A stretch of DNA of 40,374 nt from Promethearchaeota archaeon (GTDB lineage: Archaea > Asgardarchaeota > Lokiarchaeia > Sigyniarchaeales > SOKP01): positions 1 through 40,374 of the forward strand of contig JABCSY010000030.1 in the NCBI GenBank assembly GCA_018238625.1, given 5' to 3'. Below the pieces are notes generated by a model. That model searched no databases. It was not told the DNA's origin and saw nothing but the letters and a program-made list of their open reading frames with translations. The translations under genes and the position numbers were made by a program. Position 1 is the stretch's first letter; the number at the start of each line of letters is the position of its first letter. This document shows, piece after piece, positions 40-22,639 of the stretch.

Positions 40-2004
40 TTAATATTTATGTGTTCCGCGGCAATATGGATATTCAGAACAACCCCAGAATCTCCCGAAT
101 TCCCCTTCGCGCAGGACCATTTTTGAACCGCATCTCGGGCAGCTCGGGATATTATTTACAATTGGATCCGTATCAATTTCCTTGTGGGACAGGTTTTCAA
201 AACGTTGTCTGAAGAGAGTGGAAGTTTTTTTGGCTGCGCTGGATGCTGGAAAATCTTCAAGGACTTTTTGTAATAAGGCGCTTCCTTGTTCGGAAAAGGA
301 TATAGCGTTTTTAGTGTTGCCTTCCCTGATGAAAAATTTTGCTTTTTCGAGGTAAAAATTTCCTGTTTCGAAAAGAATTTCGGGGTCTTCCGGGTTTTTA
401 GAGATTTTTATCAGCAGTGCTTCTTCCTGTGTGTCTATTTCATTTTTTGAAAATGTTTTTTCTGATGAGTCTTTGCCGGTTTCTATTATTTTGAATTCTT
501 TTCTGCCGAGCAAAACATCGATGCCTTTTTTGTTCAGAAAGATTACAGGGTGTTCGACCCCGCTTAATTTCAAAAATCCTTCAGAAATGAGCCGTTGAAG
601 AATTTCCATGGTTTTTTCCTGTGATTCTTTAATTGTGCTATAGGTTTTTAATTTATCAAAACCGTTTTGTTCGATAACCATTGCCTTCGATCCGGTTAGT
701 ATCTGGGCGATTCTTATTTTTATAAGGGGTTGTGGTATTTCTTTTACGCATCTCAACAGGTTTTCTGCCAGTTTTGCTTCCTGGATAGTATATCCGGCTT
801 CTTTAAAAGTTGGTTCATCTTCAAGTATTTCCCGGCCGATACAAATATCACATCCGGGGCAGAGGTCTTTTTCATATTTCTCGCCGAAGTATTCGAGCAG
901 CATTTTTCTCCTGCAGCGGTGAGATGTAGCATATTGGATAATTTGGTGAAGTTTTTTTACTTCGTGATTTCTCTGGATCTCCATTTTTTCCCAGGGAATG
1001 TTAAGTTTATCAAAGGGCGTATTGAAATCCTTTATAAGTATGGAGCGTCCTCTAAAAGGAGATGAATATTTAATGAGATTTAGTTTATCCATGTTGTTTA
1101 AAGTGCGGGAGATCTGGTCAGATTTTAGGCCTGCTGATTTAATTAGATCTCGAAAGGAAAAAGAAAATGTGTTAGCATCTTTGTTTCCCCCCCCCATATC
1201 CATGATAGCCGAAGTAAGAGTTTTTTGTAGTTTGCTTTTTTGCCTTTTTAAAATTGTTTCAGGGGGTGTTCCAAATTTTACGCTGGCGACGTTATCAAAT
1301 CGGGAAAGAAGATCAATTGCGCCTGCTTTTTTCAGGATTCTCAGTGTGCTTGAGATACCCTGTTCACTAATTTCTATATTTAATGATTTTTTTATTTCTT
1401 CACGTGTTTTTGACACGGGATTTTCATCCTGGTTTATGAGATAGTTGTGTACCAGGTACACCTGCTGTTTTGTAGGATGGTTCTGCGCAATAAAATATTC
1501 CTGCAGTTTAATGTCAGATGGGGAGTAGAGAAGTATGCACCATGCTTTTTTACCATCTCTGCCGGCCCTGCCGGCTTCCTGGTAATAGCTTTCAATATTT
1601 CCGGGAATTATTCCTGCTAATTCCAAGGATTTCTTAATAGTTGGTCTTGTATTTAAGGATAAAATGGCTAGTTTAGTCCCCCTTTTTACGCCAAACAATT
1701 TTGTATTATTGATAAAGTAGATTGTCTCTTCAATAGGTTCGTTCTTTTCTATGTTATCAAGTTCGTATTGCTTAATAACATCAAAATTACGTTGTAATTC
1801 CGCTTCGTCTCCTTTTCCGACAATATCACTAAGACAAGCGGAAATGCTCGTAAATTGACAGTCATCTTGAAAATGTTCAGAATAACGATCGTTTAAAACT
1901 TTTTTTAATGAATACCAATCTGCCGCTAATCTAACGATCGTACCATCTAAATCGAACACAATTACTTTCTTATCTTTCAGTGGAAGTATTTTACTCTTAT
2001 CCAT
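40..2004 (-). CDS. Chimeric ORF: N-terminal HAD-like hydrolase fragment fused in frame to the C-terminal half of a RecQ helicase (motif VI, Zn-binding, RQC, C-terminal topoisomerase-type C4 zinc finger)
   Basis: HAD motif I (VIVFDLDGT) and motif II-like LSLNT are present, but there is no HAD C-terminal motif. Then IPGNIESYYQEAGRAGRDG (RecQ motif VI), CRR...CPGCDIC and CPRCG...FWGCSEYPYC follow. RecQ motifs I-V are absent. Junction about 1604-1614. Confidence 0.75.
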   Translation of the reverse strand: MDKSKILPLKDKKVIVFDLDGTIVRLAADWYSLKKVLNDRYSEHFQDDCQFTSISACLSDIVGKGDEAELQRNFDVIKQYELDNIEKNEPIEETIYFINNTKLFGVKRGTKLAILSLNTRPTIKKSLELAGIIPGNIESYYQEAGRAGRDGKKAWCILLYSPSDIKLQEYFIAQNHPTKQQVYLVHNYLINQDENPVSKTREEIKKSLNIEISEQGISSTLRILKKAGAIDLLSRFDNVASVKFGTPPETILKRQKSKLQKTLTSAIMDMGGGNKDANTFSFSFRDLIKSAGLKSDQISRTLNNMDKLNLIKYSSPFRGRSILIKDFNTPFDKLNIPWEKMEIQRNHEVKKLHQIIQYATSHRCRRKMLLEYFGEKYEKDLCPGCDICIGREILEDEPTFKEAGYTIQEAKLAENLLRCVKEIPQPLIKIRIAQILTGSKAMVIEQNGFDKLKTYSTIKESQEKTMEILQRLISEGFLKLSGVEHPVIFLNKKGIDVLLGRKEFKIIETGKDSSEKTFSKNEIDTQEEALLIKISKNPEDPEILFETGNFYLEKAKFFIREGNTKNAISFSEQGSALLQKVLEDFPASSAAKKTSTLFRQRFENLSHKEIDTDPIVNNIPSCPRCGSKMVLREGEFGRFWGCSEYPYCRGTHKY

Positions 2005-2086
2005 GTTTCATATTCAACAAGACTAATGAATAAATAAGATAATTTTACATAAAAAATAAGTTTTCGTTATAAATTTTCAAATCAAT

Positions 2087-3019
2087 TTATAAACGCGAAT
2101 AATACATCGCTCTGTACCCAATTTTGTGAAACGGACATTCCTTTATACAAATAGAACATCCCGTAGTTTCGTAAAAATATTCGATGCATTTTTCTCCATC
2201 AATTCTAGTTTTTATACCGTTTTCTTTGATAATTGGTTCGTAGTAAATCGCGTTCACGGGGCACATTTGAACGCATCTTTTGCATTTCTTACAATACTCG
2301 TCTATCTCAAAATTTTCTTGAGAAACGTCAGGAAGAGGGGTTGCGTTCACAGAAATCATGGATAATCTCTGCCTTGGACCGAATTTTTTAGTGATTAAAA
2401 TACCTTGAGTTCCAATTTTCCCCAATCCTGCTTTTACTGCCATCGCGGGTAAAAGAATTGGACCACCAAGTGGATGGCACGCAATTGCTCTATAACCTTT
2501 AGATCTAATAAAATCTGCTAATTTGTTTGTCGCCTCACCTAACTCTGCGTATATGTTTAAAGATTCTAACCCTGCTGGAGGTTCAGGAGCCTGATCTATA
2601 GCTTCGTAATCCATTTCCATTCCTAAAACAATTCCATTCTCGTATAGAAATTCGATTCCGCCTACATAATCGTTCTTAAAAATAAAATTTTCGTCCACAG
2701 GCGCAAATCCTACAAGATCAATTCCTAAAATCTTCGCTTGCTCGATAACTTCTTCCCAAAATTCTTTAGGTGCGGATTGAGGTTTGTCAGGTAGGTTTTT
2801 CATTTCTCTTTTGTAATCCGTTTTTGCTCTTTGAACAGTTTTGAAGAGTTTCGGAACTACTATTTTAGCTTTGTCAGATAATTGGCCCTTAAATTCTCTT
2901 ATATCAAATTTATTCAGTTCTATTAGCCGTGATTTCAATCCTTTGGATTTTTTTAACAATTCTAACACCGAAAAATTAATTAGTTGCTTTAATCCACTCA
3001 GTTTTATAAAGATTATCAT
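2087..3019 (-). CDS. Reductive dehalogenase / epoxyqueuosine reductase (QueG)-like cobalamin, 2x[4Fe-4S] protein
   Basis: AVKAGLGKIG...LITKKFGPRQRL motif, CKKCKRCVQMCP and C...GCSICIKECPF ferredoxin motifs. No Tat signal seen. Confidence 0.8.
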   Translation of the reverse strand: MIIFIKLSGLKQLINFSVLELLKKSKGLKSRLIELNKFDIREFKGQLSDKAKIVVPKLFKTVQRAKTDYKREMKNLPDKPQSAPKEFWEEVIEQAKILGIDLVGFAPVDENFIFKNDYVGGIEFLYENGIVLGMEMDYEAIDQAPEPPAGLESLNIYAELGEATNKLADFIRSKGYRAIACHPLGGPILLPAMAVKAGLGKIGTQGILITKKFGPRQRLSMISVNATPLPDVSQENFEIDEYCKKCKRCVQMCPVNAIYYEPIIKENGIKTRIDGEKCIEYFYETTGCSICIKECPFHKIGYRAMYYSRL

Positions 3020-3126
3020 TTTACAGCTGAAGAAATAACCTTATTATATCTTCCATATTCTAATTGGATTTTATTTGCTAAATAAACAATCTAAGCATTA
3101 AATTGTGAAATTGAAAAATAGAAAAT

Positions 3127-3397: not shown

Positions 3398-5845
3398 GTG
3401 GTCTATTTTATGATGAATATAAAAATGAAAAATATTTTTGCTTTTTTAATGCTATTTCTGATAATTTTTTCAATTTCTAATCAAAATAATATGAAAAATT
3501 GTATTGAACCTGCTCAAGAGGATTTGAAAATTAGAACATTTAATTTAAAATCTGCAGGATTTTGGAATAACTTTACATTTATCCATATTACTAATTTAAA
3601 TTGGACAATTGCTAATGAAACTGATTGGTGTTCTGGATCAGGTACTTGGGATAATCCCTATTTAATTGAAAACATGATAATTAATGCAAGTGATTCTCCA
3701 ATAGGTTCTGGTATTTTTATTGAAAATTCCATTAATGTGTATTTTACAATTAGAAATGTTACAATATTTGAAACCACTAATGGAATTAAGTTAGAAAATA
3801 CGAATAATGGGGCTTTAATTAATAATAGGCTATTAGATAACTTAGACTCGGGAATTAGCTTGGTTAATTGCGTTAATAATACAATTTCAAAAAATGAATT
3901 AATTAATAACGGGGGACAGGGAATTAATTTATTCTCAAATTGTATTAATAATAAAATCCTTGGAAATATAGCAAAAAATGATGGTACAAATTTCCAAGAT
4001 ACTGGAATATATCTTAATAGTTATTGCGATAACAATGAAATTATGGAAAATATAGTATCTGATAATGATGTTAATGGAATATTTCTTAATAATTTTTGTG
4101 AAGGAAACTTGATATATAATAATACAGTTAAAAATACAATTACAAATCAGCAAGATTATGGTATAAGATTTGATGATAGTGATCAGAACAATGTCTCACT
4201 AAATGTAATTGAAGATCTTGATCATTATGGAATAAGGCTGGTTTCCTCTGAGAAAATTATTATATCAAATAATAAAATAATAAATTCCAATCGTGGAATA
4301 TCTTTGTTGATAACTCGTCAAATTGAAATTATTAGCAATACAATTTCAGGTGGTTCTACAGCAATTTTTATGAGTGCGGGTGATGTGGGAAAAATATATG
4401 GAAATTTTATAAATGAAACGGGAAGCTATGCAATAAGATTATTTATAAATTGCGATGACAATGAGTTTCACGATAACATTATTAAAGATAATAATAATGG
4501 GGTACAACTTGATGATCCCTCTGATATGAATAATAATTTTTATAAAAATTCCTTTATTTCAAATATAGTTCACGCTATTGATAACGGAACGGCAACTTTT
4601 TGGAATAATACAATGATTGGGAATTATTGGGATAATTACGCGGGATTGGATGCTAATGATGATCTAATAGGAGATATATGTCATATTATTCCCGGATCTG
4701 CCAACAGTAATGATTCATTACCGATATGGGATGATGGAGATGACTTACTTCCAGAGATTGTCATAAATTCACCTACAAATGGCTCAATATTCGCATTACC
4801 GCCCGAGTTTATAATTAATTTTTCTGATGTTAATTTTGATAAGCTCTGGGTAACCGTTAATTATTCAAATATCGAATATGGATTTATCGCGAGTCCCGGT
4901 AATAATGTACTAATTGACATGCCCTTTTCAATATGGAATTTATTACCTGAAGGCCATTTTCTAGTTAAAATCTATGTGAATGATACTGCTGGTAATGTCA
5001 ATTATGTTGAAGTAACTCTCATTAAGGAGCTCCCTCCAGAACTACCCTCCCTCAATGTAACTTTTATCATTGTTATTAGTATTATCGTAATATCGGTAAT
5101 TACAATTGCTGGAATTGTAATAAGAGGATTGCCAAAAAAGGATAAAATAAAAAAATCACGAAAACTAGATGAAGAGCAGTTATCAAAAGCGCAATATTTT
5201 AAAGATGTAACAAGCATTCTTACAATTTTAGCCATACATAATAAATCAGGCTTATGTCTATCTAAAATTGCCGCTCATGGCGGTACTGGATTGGATGAAC
5301 ATTTATTCACTGGCTTTATATCTGCTATGGGAAGTTTTAAAAATGAACTTGCTAAACAGATGGGTCTACCAGTTCGGGATGGAGGTGGAGATAATGTTAT
5401 TGAGTACAATGAATTTACTATTACCCTCATGGATGGTGAATATCTTAGATTAGGTTTAGTTTCTCATAAAAATCTTGGAGATTTAATAAAAGAACAGTGT
5501 GGACAGGTTTTAAGGGCTTATGAAATTAAGCATATTGATGATTTAAAAAACTTTGACGGCGAAATCCAAGTTTTCAATGATTTTGAGGAAAAAATTGAAA
5601 CCGGACTTGACATGAATCTGAATAAAAAATCTATCATTAATGTAAAACAATTAAATAAATATGATGCTCCTGAATCATTTATAACCATTTTAAACGATCT
5701 TAATTCAAGATCTGATGGGTTTTATCCTGCAGAAATCGCTTTAACCCTCGTGCAAGAAATGAATATTTCAGATCAAGAAGCTAATTTCATGGTCTATGAA
5801 GCCTATAAAAATCAATTATTTTTACCAATAAAATTAGAAAAATAA
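3398..5845 (+). CDS. Single-pass membrane protein: extracellular right-handed beta-helix (NosD-like) + Ig-like domain, TM helix, cytoplasmic longin-like domain
   Basis: N-terminal hydrophobic signal, GSGTWDNPYLIEN, many N-x-I-x-x-N/GI-x-L repeats, GNYWDNY, NDTAGN, TM at about 5057-5122, then ILAIHNKSGLCL...LFTGFISAM...IEY pattern typical of longin-like folds. Confidence 0.8.
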   Translation: MVYFMMNIKMKNIFAFLMLFLIIFSISNQNNMKNCIEPAQEDLKIRTFNLKSAGFWNNFTFIHITNLNWTIANETDWCSGSGTWDNPYLIENMIINASDSPIGSGIFIENSINVYFTIRNVTIFETTNGIKLENTNNGALINNRLLDNLDSGISLVNCVNNTISKNELINNGGQGINLFSNCINNKILGNIAKNDGTNFQDTGIYLNSYCDNNEIMENIVSDNDVNGIFLNNFCEGNLIYNNTVKNTITNQQDYGIRFDDSDQNNVSLNVIEDLDHYGIRLVSSEKIIISNNKIINSNRGISLLITRQIEIISNTISGGSTAIFMSAGDVGKIYGNFINETGSYAIRLFINCDDNEFHDNIIKDNNNGVQLDDPSDMNNNFYKNSFISNIVHAIDNGTATFWNNTMIGNYWDNYAGLDANDDLIGDICHIIPGSANSNDSLPIWDDGDDLLPEIVINSPTNGSIFALPPEFIINFSDVNFDKLWVTVNYSNIEYGFIASPGNNVLIDMPFSIWNLLPEGHFLVKIYVNDTAGNVNYVEVTLIKELPPELPSLNVTFIIVISIIVISVITIAGIVIRGLPKKDKIKKSRKLDEEQLSKAQYFKDVTSILTILAIHNKSGLCLSKIAAHGGTGLDEHLFTGFISAMGSFKNELAKQMGLPVRDGGGDNVIEYNEFTITLMDGEYLRLGLVSHKNLGDLIKEQCGQVLRAYEIKHIDDLKNFDGEIQVFNDFEEKIETGLDMNLNKKSIINVKQLNKYDAPESFITILNDLNSRSDGFYPAEIALTLVQEMNISDQEANFMVYEAYKNQLFLPIKLEK

Positions 5846-5936
5846 ATCTCTTAAGGTAACTCAGGATCATTCATACTGGCGTTTGACTTATGAAGTGTGT
5901 TAAAAAAGTAGAGATAAATAAATTAATAAAAATGAA

Positions 5937-6007
5937 CTAATCCATCGCGTATTTTTTAGTCCAAGAGGCTGCTTTAGCTTGAAACTTTTTCAAAGCCCTG
6001 AAATATT
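5937..6007 (-). repeat. Orphan duplicate of the E2 last exon (YFRALKKFQAKAASWTKKYAMD*)
   Basis: 71-nt direct repeat of 7601-7671; 58/71 identical, and all 13 differences are synonymous. Confidence 0.95.
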
Positions 6008-6009
6008 AA

Positions 6010-7509
6010 ATGAAAAAAAAAAGGTTGTGGATACAAAAATCAAAGGAGTATGGAAATTTAAATGTTATTTATGATATATGTGATATAATTATAAATCTTG
6101 ATAGAAAGAGTGATATCATCATAAATAATCGTAATCTTATTCATCAAGAAAATGAATTATTAAACAAACCTTGGGAAATTGTTGATTATTACTTTGATAA
6201 TATAGGTTTTTGTAGAAAATCATCTGATAGTTCAATAATTAGACATAATTACATCCCAATAAAATTTTTATCTAATAATATGAAATTAAAATGTAAGTAT
6301 TGTGGTCATGAGTTAACAAATAATGATATTTCCGGATTATATAAAGCAAAAAGACTTCAACTTTGGGAAGTGGATCAAAATAAAAATCCAAATGATATTA
6401 CAATCTATCTTATCAATTGGAGAAAAAATCAAGATGATAAGTATTTGAAATTTCCTGGTCTTTTTTATCCTGGGATGACAAGGAAAACTGCTAAAGAACG
6501 TGTATATGGAAATGGTGGTCATTTTTACAAGGCGTTTAGTAATCCAAAAACGGCGATTGAGTACACAATCAGAAAATACGGGCTTAATCCAAAAAAAGCT
6601 CAAAAATTATTTAAAGTAGAAGTTCTTCAAATTGTTGAAGATCAAGGCACTCAGAAAGCTACTCAAGAATTAGCTAATACAATAGAGAGCTTTTGGATTG
6701 GGTTTTTTCATTCACAATTTTATGAATTTGGAAGAAATATTGAACCAGGGGGTTCTATTGTGCGTAAATCCATAATTCTTCCTTTTGATTCTTTAGATAA
6801 AGCCTTACATGAAGCATGCATGCTTCCACGAATTGGTGCTATTAGTCGAAAGCCTTATGTTTATGATAAATTAGGAATGAGAGAGACGCAAAATCGTATA
6901 CTTGATAATAGTATTGAATTCTGGTATGGATTTACATTAGCTAGATTTGAAAATGTTATTAGGTTTAAAAGATTTAACATAATTCAAAATTTATTTGAAC
7001 TGGGATACAAGACAGCATATATTTCCAATGAAATTAATGCTGATAGACATGATATTATTAGATGGATTGAGGAAGACATTTATATTAATAAATATTTAGG
7101 ACTTTCCTATAAAGAAATTCGAATCGCTTTATTAAGTGATAAAATCAAGAAATATGTTTCAGAAGGACAAATAACTCCCGAGTTACTTTTGAATGTCCTT
7201 CCTGGATTCAAAAATTCTGATGCTATTAAACATTTTATTCGACAGCGTTTAGGTGGTTGGAATAATTTGATTGCTAACTATGCTTTAAAAGAGGATTATT
7301 GGTTAAAAGCAAAGAACTTATTTAAACAAAGAAAAAATGAGATAGAGTTAGGGAGGTCTTCTGATTATACTGCGGTAGAATTTGCTCAGGCTCTTGGTTC
7401 CAACACGATTCATACATCAGCAGCTATAAAATTTTTAAAAAGAAAATTAGACACAGATATGAATTGGTTAGAGATTAAGAGCTTACTATCAAAAAAAAAA
7501 ATAGATTAA
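6010..7509 (+). CDS. Free-standing GIY-YIG family (homing-type) endonuclease with a long C-terminal putative DNA-binding region
   Basis: TIY...FYPGMT...ER...H...FKVEVLQ...ANTIESFWI...S...GRNIEPGG (about 6400-6753) follows the GIY-YIG motif order (Y, Y-x-G, R, H, E, N..GG). A CKYC motif lies upstream. The true start may be downstream (e.g. ATG 6280). Confidence 0.75.
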   Translation: MKKKRLWIQKSKEYGNLNVIYDICDIIINLDRKSDIIINNRNLIHQENELLNKPWEIVDYYFDNIGFCRKSSDSSIIRHNYIPIKFLSNNMKLKCKYCGHELTNNDISGLYKAKRLQLWEVDQNKNPNDITIYLINWRKNQDDKYLKFPGLFYPGMTRKTAKERVYGNGGHFYKAFSNPKTAIEYTIRKYGLNPKKAQKLFKVEVLQIVEDQGTQKATQELANTIESFWIGFFHSQFYEFGRNIEPGGSIVRKSIILPFDSLDKALHEACMLPRIGAISRKPYVYDKLGMRETQNRILDNSIEFWYGFTLARFENVIRFKRFNIIQNLFELGYKTAYISNEINADRHDIIRWIEEDIYINKYLGLSYKEIRIALLSDKIKKYVSEGQITPELLLNVLPGFKNSDAIKHFIRQRLGGWNNLIANYALKEDYWLKAKNLFKQRKNEIELGRSSDYTAVEFAQALGSNTIHTSAAIKFLKRKLDTDMNWLEIKSLLSKKKID

Positions 7510-7600
7510 TATCCATTATATCAATGTTTTTTTTAACTAAGAATTATATATAAAACGAGTTATTCTGTAAAAAATAAGATAAAAAAAATATTATTTAGAC

Positions 7601-8209
7601 CTAATCCATAGCGTACTTTTTCGTCCATGAAGCAGCCTTAGCTTGGAACTTCTTAAGCGCCCTGAAGTATTGTTTTCTAGTTTATTAGGCATTTCCTAAT
7701 AAATCTCCAGCCTCATGGTTAAGAGGGTCTCCAGGGTTAAAGAAGGGAGGCTCTACATGCTTGCAGTTGAGGAATGAAACATTTCTCAATATCATGCCCT
7801 TTAGAGCCTCTATTATATTAGTTAGAGTCTTGGACGGTGTCCACCCACTAGCTCCAGTGCTAGCATCTACCTTCCCTACTAAATCGGGGTTAATTAAATC
7901 TAAACAAATATTAAGCTTTCCGGGAGGTATGGATGAATCTATGTTTGGATGCCACATGAGGGTTACCGCGTAAGCATTTCTCCGAAATAGATTAACCATC
8001 TAATTCAATGGAGGTGCAAACGGGTAATTTTCCGGGAACTTAATTTCGAAAATAAACTTTCCTTTATAATAAGGCGTTCCATCTTTTCCGATGATTGTAA
8101 GCCGGAGATGATCGATACTACGACCCCATGGTTCGATGATTATGTTACTGTCGTCTTTGTACGATTCGATGGCTTCAGTATAATCAGTTTCTTCTCTCAT
8201 AATACTCAC
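7601..8209 (-). CDS. Ubiquitin-conjugating enzyme E2, four exons (8209-8008, 7977-7791, 7760-7705, 7674-7601), 172 aa after splicing
   Basis: GTPY..G.F...I.FPENYPFAPP, WHPNI, catalytic NICLDLI, GWTPS..L, DPLN.EA and A..WTKKYA are all in one frame. The ORF track splits it only because of in-frame stops inside 30-nt hairpin inserts. Confidence 0.9.
7675..7704 (-). other. Putative BHB mRNA intron 3 (30 nt, contains in-frame TAA TAA)
   Basis: CTGG-AG^A-TTTATTAGG-AAATG-CCTAATAAA-CTAG-AA^A. Excision gives NHEAGEQYFRALKK. Confidence 0.85.
7761..7790 (-). other. Putative relaxed-BHB mRNA intron 2 (30 nt, no stop codon)
   Basis: GCA(T)G-AT^A-TTGAGAAATG-TTT-CATTCCTCAA-CTGC-AA^G, closed by a perfect 9-bp exon-exon helix GAGGCTCTA/TAGAGCCTC. 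Excision gives LKGMMHVEPP. Exact boundaries are less certain. Confidence 0.7.
7978..8007 (-). other. Putative BHB mRNA intron 1 (30 nt, contains in-frame TAG)
   Basis: CTCC-AT^T-GAATTAGAT-GGTTA-ATCTATTTC-GGAG-AA^A. Excision gives PPYAYAVTLMWHPNI, restoring canonical E2 PP-x5-T-x2-WHPNI spacing. Confidence 0.85.
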
Positions 8210-8653
8210 TTTTCTTTTAAAATATTAAAACAATGTTAAATATCTAGTTAGGGTTTTCTTTAAAAAATATTGTGTAAATTTCGATTTTTGTTGTAAATCG
8301 GATAAATTGCAAAATATAGCAAGATTCAAAAGTTTTGTTTTTACAGATTAGAAAAATCCCTCTATTCGCATTATATCTGTTAAAAATCGCAAAAATTTTA
8401 TTTATTTCTCATATTGAAATAGAGGTTTTAATAATTTTTATGATCAATAGAATTATATTTTCTTAAAAATGGGAGTTCCGAAGACTTTTCGTTTTTTTAT
8501 TATGATGATCGAAAATAATTCGTTAGATTTATTATATATGATTTTTATATTTAAATTGTATCTATTTAATTAGATCAATTTACTAATAAATATACTGATA
8601 AAAATTAGAATTGAATTTTATTCGGATAAATTAAAAATTATAAATAAAAAAAG

Positions 8654-13206: not shown

Positions 13207-13359
13207 CCCCCCATAGCTCAGTTGGTTTAGAGCGCGCGGCTGTAGATAAATATCGCATACTAAGGTTTTTGCCTATGAAGTATTGTCAGCCGATACCGTG
13301 AGGTCCCCGGCTCAAACTCCCTTTCTGTTTTAGGAAGGATGAGATTCCGGGTGGGGGGA
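13207..13359 (+). tRNA. tRNA-Tyr(GTA) with two introns (about 13246-13294 in the anticodon loop; 13317-13345 at 59/60 in the T-loop)
   Basis: Acceptor CCCCCCA/TGGGGGG + A73 (archaeal C1:G72 Tyr identity), D-arm GCTC/GAGC, anticodon stem CGCGG/CCGTG with GTA at 13242-13244, T-stem CCCGG/CCGGG. Strict BHB CTCA-AA^C...TGAG-AT^T for the T-loop intron. CCA is not encoded. Confidence 0.9.
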
Positions 13360-22289: not shown

Positions 22290-22639
22290 GCGAAAAGATA
22301 GATATCTTTATATAGTTAAGTGATCAATATTTGACTATCAAAATAAAATTGGAAACCATGATCAAAAAATATATTCTTATACCTAAGAGTCGAAAGACTC
22401 AATACCTCAACCCTTATGACAAATTCGCGATTTCCGCGGGTCGGGAAAACCCTGTTATTAGATAAATACATCTCCTCTTTTTAAAATTTTGAACGTCCTG
22501 GTTTCCGATTTCCTTCTTTTTACTTAAGAATTTCTCTCGTTGGTCAATAGATTTAAAGATACGTTAAAACCTTAAGTAAAAAAATTATCAAGGTTCAATA
22601 TCGTAAAAAAATTTAATTAAAAAAAAAATTAGAAAAAGG

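What the first reader, a model, noticed from the sequence alone, without database searches (positions are those of the whole stretch)
7675..8030. The introns share length and architecture but not sequence, and the flanking exons pair with each other
Seen: the three stems are unrelated in sequence, yet all inserts are 30 nt, end in AA, and have 3' ends complementary to the 4 exon nt before the 5' bulge. Exon-exon pairing closes each structure: TTACC..GCA/TGC..GGTAA (intron 1), GAGGCTCTA/TAGAGCCTC (intron 2), TGAGG/CTTCA and CTTAA/TTAAG (intron 3). Inference: this is selection on RNA structure with synonymous tuning of exons rather than copies of one MITE. Intron 2 has no stop, so such introns would be invisible in annotations and could be widespread. 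Introns 1 and 3 make E2 expression dependent on splicing.
Basis: partly seen in the sequence, partly recalled or inferred. Interest (0 to 1): 0.75.

Follow-up and report, generated by a model that had tools for sequence, protein, structure and literature searches.

The report
Mini-introns splitting an archaeal E2 gene
Three 30-base inserts break up the ubiquitin-conjugating enzyme gene of an Asgard archaeon, and at least two look like tRNA-type introns that must be cut out of the messenger RNA, which in archaea has so far been documented for only one other gene.

Summary
The minus-strand E2 (UBC) gene at 8200..7601 carries three 30-nt inserts at 7978-8007, 7761-7790 and 7675-7704. Most orthologues lack them.

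I defined 22 such inserts (29-39 nt) at 7 sites in 17 loci from 16 genomes of one Promethearchaeia family.
- 20 of 22 fit the bulge-helix-bulge (BHB) register that tRNA introns of this genome use. Four exon bases pair with the four intron bases before a terminal dinucleotide, which is AA in 20 of 22.
- The stems covary.
- Removing the inserts restores a 169-codon frame, including for the 29-, 31- and 32-nt inserts.
- Exons downstream of shared inserts show dN/dS of about 0.07-0.14.
- The genome encodes two EndA paralogues and RtcB.

My reading is BHB pre-mRNA introns (confidence 0.8). The closest precedent is crenarchaeal cbf5.

Caveats:
- No RNA read covers a junction.
- The outer helix is relaxed.
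- Window intron 2 lacks the central helix (1 of 4 pairs). It is also the only insert with neither a stop nor a frameshift, so it may be retained as ten extra residues.
- Neither genome-wide scans nor 15.5 kb of alignment with relatives showed the class outside this gene, so "widespread" is not supported.

The parts
7601..8200 (-). E2 (ubiquitin-conjugating enzyme, UQ_con) gene. ATG at 8200, stop codon at 7603-7601. 600 nt in the genome, 510 nt once the three inserts are removed.
   Evidence: Pfam PF00179 on both ORF pieces. The genome search match 7604-8200 with 1 TAG and 2 TAA inside, 96% identity to the intronless orthologue. In-silico excision gives a 169-codon ORF.
8008..8200 (-). Exon 1 (193 nt). 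Its bases 8013-8010 (CTCC) form the 5' strand of the central helix of intron 1. 8009-8008 (AT) are the first two bulge bases.
7978..8007 (-). Intron 1 (30 nt, phase 1, in-frame TAG). 9-bp stem with one mismatch, 5-nt loop, GGAG at 7983-7980 pairing with exon CTCC, terminal AA.
   Evidence: Absent from most orthologues. Homologous inserts sit at the same site in L064, L005, L067, L076 and L019, with 7 of 13 pairs changed on both sides. The minimum-energy fold contains the central helix and an exon-exon helix.
7791..7977 (-). Exon 2 (187 nt). Holds the HPN motif and the presumed catalytic Cys region.
7761..7790 (-). Insert 2 (30 nt, phase 2, no stop, length a multiple of 3). Stem of 8 of 9 pairs, ends in AA, but the central helix is only 1 of 4 (CATG against CTGC). 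It sits inside a 9-bp exon-exon helix. Either spliced non-canonically or retained, replacing one Met by 11 residues.
   Evidence: It is the only one of 22 inserts without a stop or frameshift, and the only one with fewer than 3 of 4 central pairs.
7705..7760 (-). Exon 3 (56 nt). 7710-7707 (CTGG) is the 5' strand of the central helix of intron 3.
7675..7704 (-). Intron 3 (30 nt, phase 1, in-frame TAA TAA). Perfect 9-bp stem, 5-nt loop, CTAG at 7680-7677 pairing with exon CTGG (one G-U pair), terminal AA.
   Evidence: This site is occupied only in the window.
7601..7674 (-). Exon 4 (71 nt plus stop codon), the conserved C-terminal helix of the E2.

Best explanation
[quoted passage not shown] In the pre-mRNA, the last six exon bases and the insert fold into one hairpin. 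Four exon bases pair with the four intron bases that precede the terminal dinucleotide (the central helix). A 3-nt bulge (two exon bases and one intron base) separates this helix from a 9-10-bp intron stem. The 3' junction lies two bases past the central helix. I infer that the (alpha-beta)2-type tRNA splicing endonuclease cuts both sites and RtcB joins the exons. This gives a 169-residue E2 and probably a small circular intron. Without splicing, translation stops in intron 1. Insert 2 of the window has lost the central helix and carries no stop, so I rate it about even between non-canonical splicing and retention as a ten-residue insertion. Shown here: the anatomy, its conservation with covariation, frame restoration, purifying selection, and the presence of the enzyme genes. 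Inferred: the cutting, the joining and any regulation.
For: (1) Register. 20 of 22 inserts have 4 of 4 central-helix pairs (84 of 88 positions, against 24-52 in shifted registers). The inner stem has 136 of 154 pairs in register against 45-86 off register. 20 of 22 end in AA. Among the 8 inserts whose junction is unique at nucleotide level, 6 have 4 of 4. (2) The same register, with the anticodon stem as outer helix, is found at 5 of 17 ARAGORN intron-bearing tRNAs of this genome. (3) Covariation. At site B193 (6 sequences), 89.7% of cells pair against 30-56% when slid, 7 of 13 pairs changed on both sides, and 0 of 500 shuffles reached this. For the 32-nt family at E388 (4 sequences), 92.9% pair and 4 pairs changed on both sides. 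In the E388 central helix (9 sequences), 36 of 36 cells pair, and 2 of 4 pairs covary between exon codon bases and intron. (4) Excision by this rule restores a complete 169-codon ORF in 15 of 17 loci. L005 is cut by its contig end and is open for 140 codons. L073 is open for 141 codons. 21 of 22 inserts would otherwise break the frame: 20 carry stops and 10 have lengths of 29, 31 or 32 nt. Phases 1 and 2 split conserved codons. (5) Exons downstream of shared inserts are under purifying selection. For the window against L064, 36 of 68 synonymous and 15 of 244 non-synonymous sites differ, giving dN/dS 0.07. For L071-L072 it is 0.14, L069-L070 0.12 and L002-L068 0.08. Most other pairs are saturated at synonymous sites. 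(6) Machinery. There are two EndA paralogues of 200 and 201 aa at 35% identity, both with the N- and C-terminal domains, and one RtcB. Passages of PMC5829648 state that Asgard archaea have the (alpha-beta)2 EndA with the loop linked to relaxed specificity. (7) The inserts are present in DNA of public metagenome contigs, so they are not an assembly artefact.
Against: No RNA evidence: no transcript read or contig covers any junction. In all 22 inserts the outer (exon-exon) helix has only 0-2 consecutive pairs directly next to the 3' bulge. The motif is therefore relaxed (HBh'- or BHL-like), not the strict hBHBh'. In window intron 3 the 3' site lies in a 9-nt unpaired stretch. In 11 of 22 the unconstrained minimum-energy fold does not contain the central helix; forcing it costs at most 2.8 kcal/mol in 9 of these 11, lowers the energy by 0.9 kcal/mol in L019 B193, and costs 9.2 kcal/mol in window insert 2. 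Window insert 2 fails the register (1 of 4). For 5 inserts I chose the junction using the register or by analogy, which is partly circular for those. No second gene with this class was found, and why one gene should collect introns at 7 sites is unexplained.
Confidence: 0.8

Rival explanations
1. Only for window insert 2 (7761-7790): it is no longer an intron. It is a former BHB intron that lost its central helix and is now translated, giving an E2 with Met replaced by 11 residues at the end of the crossover helix.
For: It is the only insert of 22 with neither a stop nor a frameshift, and the only one with 1 of 4 central pairs. The other insert at the same site (L073) has a perfect central helix (AATG/CATT) and an in-frame stop.
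Against: The stem is still 8 of 9 pairs and the end is still AA. The exon-exon duplex around it is the strongest seen at that site (-16.3 kcal/mol, against a minimum of -11.8 in 27 intronless alleles). That would be odd for a mere coding insertion. Ten random codons at this base composition lack a stop about half the time (my estimate). No orthologue has such a peptide.
Confidence: 0.45
2. The interrupted alleles are dead genes. The inserts are neutral insertion scars in pseudogenes and nothing removes them.
For: 20 of 22 inserts carry in-frame stops. The window's genome bin holds a second copy of the gene on another contig.
Against: Exons downstream of shared inserts keep dN/dS of about 0.07-0.14 while synonymous sites are near saturation. 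Every insert obeys one register and excises to an exact 169-codon frame. Stems covary. In the 14 other genomes with a complete gene on one contig (G014's is split across two contig ends) the interrupted locus was the only orthologue-level match listed.
Confidence: 0.04
3. The ribosome skips the inserts (programmed translational bypassing, as in phage T4 gene 60 or the yeast mitochondrial 'byp' elements; both recalled from memory).
For: Short inserts of 29-39 nt, each with a hairpin, often with a stop soon after the 5' junction.
Against: 18 of 22 inserts split a codon (phase 1 or 2), and the conserved residue is recovered only by joining at the exact nucleotide. I saw no matched take-off and landing codons at the window's junctions (read). 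The 4-bp exon-intron pairing and its covariation have no role in bypassing.
Confidence: 0.03
4. The inserts arrive as DNA-level hairpin elements (REP- or IS200/IS605-like, where a 4-nt guide next to a hairpin pairs with the target; recalled from memory). This would explain the 4-nt complementarity, and splicing would be secondary or absent.
For: A single hairpin plus 4-nt complementarity to the flanking target. The genome has one Y1 transposase gene.
Against: No other copy of any insert in the genome. There is no excess of the architecture genome-wide. All 22 are on the sense strand in the register of tRNA introns. Purifying selection downstream still requires removal at the RNA level. This rival concerns arrival more than function.
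Confidence: 0.05

Closest known systems
cbf5 pre-mRNA intron of Crenarchaeota (Watanabe 2002, recalled; Yokobori 2009, PMC2738675, abstract and passages read)
   Same: [quoted passage not shown] Attributed to a hetero-oligomeric splicing endonuclease with relaxed specificity. Shows lineage-specific presence and absence.
   Different: cbf5 has one intron at one site, in Desulfurococcales and Sulfolobales. Here the phylum differs (Asgard, Promethearchaeia), the gene differs (E2, a eukaryote-like protein), there are up to 3 inserts per gene and 7 sites in a 507-nt gene, and the build is stereotyped at 29-32 nt. Splicing of cbf5 was shown experimentally; here it is inferred.
Archaeal tRNA BHB introns, including the intron-rich tRNA genes of Asgard archaea (bioRxiv 10.64898/2026.10.13.758758, abstract and one passage; PMC11291895, passages)
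   Same: The same register of central helix and bulges as in tRNA introns of this genome. The same presumed enzymes. Repeated gain at sites able to form the motif.
   Different: The host is an mRNA. The outer helix is made by exon-exon pairing in a coding sequence instead of a tRNA stem, and is weak. The inserts are longer (29-32 nt, against 19-23 nt for the five tRNA introns checked) and carry a long inner hairpin.
HAC1/XBP1 unconventional mRNA splicing (IRE1 plus tRNA ligase or RtcB; named in passages of PMC13149111)
   Same: Spliceosome-independent removal of a short intron from an mRNA by a protein endonuclease, with RtcB-type ligation. Production of the protein depends on it.
   Different: IRE1 recognises stem-loops, not a BHB. 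No IRE1 was sought or found here. A regulatory role here is pure speculation.

Membership tests
Archaeal BHB intron (substrate of EndA) | Central 4-bp helix between the 5' exon and the 3' end of the intron | tested here: met
   4 of 4 pairs in 20 of 22 inserts, including window introns 1 and 3; 3 of 4 in L019 B193. NOT met by window insert 2 (1 of 4). Shifted registers give 0-2 of 22.
Archaeal BHB intron (substrate of EndA) | Two 3-nt bulges on opposite strands, with each junction after the second bulge base (register recalled from memory, then checked on tRNA introns of this genome) | tested here: inconclusive
   The 5' bulge is 3 nt, flanked by the central and inner helices, in 21 of 22 (L005 A167 has a long 5' loop). 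The 3' junction is always 2 nt past the central helix. However, the helix that should close the 3' bulge is only 0-2 bp next to it. The register was validated on 5 of 17 tRNA introns.
Archaeal BHB intron (substrate of EndA) | Flanking helices h and h' (strict hBHBh') | tested here: not met
   The inner helix h' is present in all (136 of 154 pairs). The outer helix h is not contiguous. Exon-exon pairing exists but is displaced by loops. The motif is therefore relaxed (HBh'- or BHL-like), as described for cbf5 (PMC2738675 passages).
Archaeal BHB intron (substrate of EndA) | Structure conserved through compensatory changes | tested here: met
   The sequences are related, so the shuffle counts are not probabilities.
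Archaeal BHB intron (substrate of EndA) | Splicing endonuclease and RtcB ligase encoded by the genome | tested here: met
   Two EndA paralogues and one RtcB.
Archaeal BHB intron (substrate of EndA) | Spliced RNA, circular intron, or in-vitro cleavage observed | not testable with these tools
   The one RNA run that touches the locus does not reach any junction.
MITE / REP-like repeated hairpin element | Many similar copies in the genome, mostly intergenic | tested here: not met
   Each window insert hits only itself. Other matches are partial, 21 nt or shorter.
Programmed translational bypass element | Coding gap between whole codons, with matching take-off and landing codons | tested here: not met
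   18 of 22 inserts are in phase 1 or 2. No matching codons at the window junctions (read).

The most novel reading that the evidence does not exclude
These are an active class of about 30-nt mini-introns that repeatedly enter a messenger RNA in Asgard archaea. Entry would be by reversal of the EndA/RtcB reaction on a trans-formed BHB, followed by reverse transcription, or by a DNA hairpin-guided route. They persist because the exons evolve pairing around them. This would make production of a eukaryote-like ubiquitin E2 conditional on the tRNA-splicing machinery, and would be a living example of intron gain, loss and exonisation (insert 2) in protein genes of the closest archaeal relatives of eukaryotes.
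Probability: 0.2. Interest if true: 0.9.

Novelty: new member of a known kind. Interest (0 to 1): 0.78.

Why it matters
In the library I searched, cbf5 of Crenarchaeota is the only archaeal protein gene with an endonuclease-type intron. That case dates from 2002 and was still the only one cited in a 2025 reference list.

A second case would differ in several ways. It lies in Asgard archaea and in a eukaryote-signature gene. It has up to three introns per gene and seven sites across a family of genomes.

If confirmed:
- Protein-gene introns of the tRNA type would be shown to be neither a crenarchaeal oddity nor single events.
- There would be a natural series of present, absent, diverged and possibly exonised alleles for studying how such introns arrive, how exons adapt, and how they are lost.
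- Gene callers are shown to truncate or split such genes.
- A cheap experiment becomes available: recombinant EndA with an E2 transcript.

Tried and rejected
RNA evidence. The look-up of sequencing runs listed 24 runs, 2 of them RNA. I laid X20, X24, X1 and X4.
- X20 (RNA) laid two contigs, at 8131-8279 (9 differences, so a relative) and 8250-8300. Neither reaches a junction.
- X24 laid nothing.
- This says nothing for or against splicing.
- Two joints in X4 (7760 to 8070, and 8145 to 8237) are single low-depth contigs at under 95% likeness. I did not interpret them.

Genome-wide search for the class in G000.
- Architecture scan, lengths 26-35 nt: 4127 hits, against 4345 in reversed and 3329 in block-shuffled sequence.
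- ORF-rescue test: 35 hits, against 22-39 for shifted excisions. The eight longest candidates looked like adjacent separate genes by eye and were not followed up with family searches.
- Refined scan (lengths 29-32 nt, AA end, A at the first bulge base): 353 hits, against 368 reversed and 229 and 235 shuffled.
- These scans are crude and their sensitivity is unknown.

Other checks that led nowhere or were set aside.
- Rfam: nothing at gathering score in the whole window. There was one chance-level hit in 7400-8400.
- I considered and rejected inteins and self-splicing group I or II introns because the inserts are far too short. This is reasoning, not a test.
- MAFFT alignment A1 of all nine E388 inserts misregisters the stems of the 29- and 30-nt members. 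I therefore used it only for the central helix and used A3 for the stems.
- I built no tree, so the order and number of gains and losses are not established.
- Supplementary files of papers were not available. They may list predicted mRNA introns that I could not see.

Full report
**What is at the coordinates.** The minus strand of 7601-8200 encodes a ubiquitin-conjugating enzyme (E2). PF00179 matches the first ORF piece (E 5e-11) and the second (E 7.6e-4). The frame is interrupted by TAG after codon 66 and by TAA TAA near the end.

The genome (G000) is 4.29 Mb in 201 contigs with 32% G+C. ARAGORN finds 28 tRNA genes, 17 of them with predicted introns. Public contigs carrying close orthologues are mostly titled Promethearchaeota or Promethearchaeia, that is Asgard, formerly Lokiarchaeia. 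The runs that hold the locus are marine-sediment and cold-seep metagenomes.

**The inserts are real and are absent from most orthologues.**
- Searching 41 relatives with the 104-aa middle ORF gave a match in 39. Most orthologues matched over 243 nt where the window needs 273.
- DNA alignments show three extra 30-nt blocks in the window. Their coordinates are 7978-8007, 7761-7790 and 7675-7704. The exons are 193, 187, 56 and 74 nt.
- Alignment of the window with loci of five close relatives recovers the same three gaps.
- Contigs of two public DNA runs bridge all three inserts with 0-5 differences. One run may be the source sample, so this only rules out a private assembly error.

**The phenomenon is larger than the window.** I searched 154 genomes of the order with an intronless orthologue, and 149 had a match (the listing was cut, with 128 weaker rows not shown).
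- 17 loci in 16 genomes are interrupted. All belong to family f1, of which 135 genomes were searched including G000. They spread over seven genera.
- The orthologue rows listed for 15 genomes of the three other families are uninterrupted.
- After fetching these loci and aligning them to an intronless CDS, I defined 22 inserts at seven sites. Sites are named by the number of CDS bases before them.

| Site | Inserts |
|---|---|
| A167 | 1 |
| A169 | 2 |
| B193 | 6 (includes window intron 1) |
| C222 | 1 |
| D380 | 2 (includes window insert 2) |
| E388 | 9 |
| F436 | 1 (window intron 3) |

- Lengths are 30 nt (11 inserts), 32 (5), 31 (3), 29 (2) and 39 (1).
- The window's own genome bin has a second copy on contig C185, with one 29-nt insert at E388.

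**Anatomy.** All but one insert (the 39-nt L005 A167) share one build: one base, a 9-10-bp stem, a 3-7-nt loop (usually 5 nt), four bases, then a terminal dinucleotide that is AA in 20 of 22. The four bases pair with the four exon bases that lie two bases upstream of the 5' junction.
- This central helix has 4 of 4 pairs in 20 of 22 inserts, 3 of 4 in one, and 1 of 4 in window insert 2.
- Summed, that is 84 of 88 pairs, against 24-52 in shifted registers.
- This is the register of a bulge-helix-bulge motif as I recall it: helix, four pairs, a three-base bulge cut after its second base, on each strand.
- I checked that recall on this genome's own tRNA genes. 5 of 17 ARAGORN intron calls fit exactly this register within 4 nt, with the anticodon stem as outer helix.

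Caveats on junction placement:
- Only 8 of 22 junctions are unique at nucleotide level. Of those, 6 have 4 of 4 pairs.
- In the rest the junction can slide by 1-6 nt without changing the product.
- For L019 C222 and L074 I took the placement that fits the register.
- For L019 E388, L065 and L075 I re-placed the aligner's gap by protein match and by analogy.

**Evidence that the structure is selected.**
- At B193, six inserts from two genera keep 89.7% of cells paired, against 30-56% when the 3' partner is slid. 7 of 13 pairs changed on both sides, and no shuffle of 500 reached this.
- The four 32-nt inserts at E388 keep 92.9% paired, with 4 pairs changed on both sides.
- Across all nine E388 inserts the central helix is paired in 36 of 36 cells. 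Two of its four pairs covary between exon bases and intron bases. The exon bases are the third base of a His codon and the first base of the Val/Met/Ile codon.
- The sequences are related, so these counts overstate independence.
- The three window inserts have no similarity to each other and no other copy in the genome.

**Evidence that the inserts are removed.**
- 21 of 22 break the reading frame: 20 carry in-frame stops and 10 have lengths that are not multiples of three. 18 split a codon.
- Cutting them out at the register-defined bonds gives a complete 169-codon ORF in 15 of 17 loci. The other two are open as far as they can be read: L005 is cut by its contig end, and L073 is open for 141 codons.
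- Exons downstream of inserts shared by two genomes have diverged heavily at synonymous sites but little at non-synonymous ones. dN/dS is 0.07 for the window against L064, 0.14 for L071-L072, 0.12 for L069-L070 and 0.08 for L002-L068. Most other pairs are saturated.
- A gene that ended at the first insert would not show this pattern.

**Machinery.**
- The genome has two EndA paralogues (200 and 201 aa, 35% identical over 124 residues), each with the N- and C-terminal endonuclease domains.
- It has one RtcB.
- Passages of PMC5829648 state that Asgard archaea carry the (alpha-beta)2 enzyme with the loop associated with relaxed substrate choice.
- PMC2738675 links the cbf5 intron to such relaxed enzymes.
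- That these two proteins form the heterotetramer here is my inference.

**Where the fit is imperfect.**
- The exon-exon helix that should close the 3' bulge has only 0-2 consecutive pairs next to it in all 22 inserts.
In intron 3 nine bases are unpaired after the 3' site.
- The motif is therefore relaxed, not strict.
- Exon-exon pairing still seems to matter. Duplex energies between the 24 nt on either side are lower in intron-bearing alleles than in 27 distinct intronless alleles:

| Site | Intron-bearing alleles (kcal/mol) | Intronless alleles (kcal/mol) |
|---|---|---|
| E388 | -11.7 to -15.2 (9 of 9) | median -6.8, minimum -11.7 |
| D380 | -16.3 | minimum -11.8 |
| F436 | -10.1 | median -5.5 |
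| B193 | lower in 3 of 6 | median -3.2 |
| A169 | not lower | median -2.1 |

- This comparison is descriptive. It could equally mean that introns survive where pairing already existed.

**Window insert 2.** This is the odd one.
- Its central helix has 1 of 4 pairs. The exon CATG can instead pair with CATG at the start of the next exon.
- In the minimum-energy fold both junctions sit in an internal loop inside a 9-bp exon-exon helix.
- It is also the only insert of 22 with neither a stop nor a frameshift.
- The other insert at this site (L073) has a perfect central helix and a stop.
- I read this as a possible exonised intron, with about even odds against non-canonical splicing.

**Is the class widespread?** I found no sign of it.
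- Three scans of the genome show no excess over reversed or shuffled controls.
- About 15.5 kb of the window aligns at 85-93% identity with five relatives. In that stretch the only other extras of 9 nt or more are intergenic.
- The more distant E2 paralogue (about 43% identity) shows no interruptions in the rows listed.

**Literature.** I ran five full-text searches and read passages of eight papers and preprints.
- They turned up only the cbf5 pre-mRNA intron of Crenarchaeota as a protein-gene BHB intron.
- On Asgard introns they turned up work on tRNA genes only.
- A 2025 paper on archaeal splicing endonucleases still cites only the cbf5 papers for pre-mRNA (reference list).
- Subscription journals and supplements were not searchable.

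**Verdict.** Two of the three window inserts, and the family they belong to, are best explained as BHB-type pre-mRNA introns. The evidence is comparative, not direct. This is a new member of a kind known from one gene, with unusual multiplicity. How the introns arrive is open: the genome holds one RT-like ORF and one Y1 transposase, which decides nothing.

Noticed in passing
window 22416-22447 (context 22370-22480): A 32-nt insert with a hairpin (a CGCG stem with a 5-nt loop inside a GAC/GTC stem) ends in AA and is flanked by a direct repeat AACCCT. It is present in the window but absent from four relatives. It sits in a noncoding block whose flanks are identical or nearly identical (at most 1 difference in 78 aligned bases) in all four, while neighbouring genes are about 88% identical. 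It does not fit the BHB register on either strand, and there is no Rfam hit. The block may be an unknown small RNA gene.
   Followed up: partly
window 13317-13345: A 29-nt extra block relative to G020, next to 13-15-nt extras in relatives. It lies in the intergenic space just downstream of the 652-aa minus-strand ORF. It looks like ordinary intergenic indel variation.
   Followed up: no
G000 contig C185:23782-24317 (L002) against window 7601-8200: The genome bin holds two copies of this E2, with 100% protein identity after excision but different inserts (one 29-nt at E388 against three in the window). Relatives have one copy. The bin's contamination estimate is 7.59%, so two strains may be binned together.
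   Followed up: partly
window 3398-7509: In G020, G016 and G051 the block matching window 1608-3047 lies directly next to the E2 gene. The two ORFs in between in the window (815 aa with a repetitive N-rich part, and 499 aa with no clear family) have no match there. This may be an insertion.
   Followed up: no
G014 contigs C9 (L077) and C226 (L005): The E2 gene of G014 is split over two contig ends that overlap at residues 30-69, exactly where its two inserts lie. The assembly may have broken on a mixture of intron-bearing and intronless alleles.
   Followed up: no
window 7704, run X4 (table 7): Two contigs match from 7705 onwards and continue upstream with letters resembling relatives' exon 4 joined directly to exon 3. 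This suggests that DNA alleles without intron 3 coexist in that cold-seep sample.
   Followed up: no
G000 contigs C58:7294-7518 and C7:25627-25875: The second EndA paralogue (L080 ORF) seems to lack the His seen in the first at the aligned position. That would fit a structural beta subunit. This is judged by eye from the BLASTP alignment only.
   Followed up: partly
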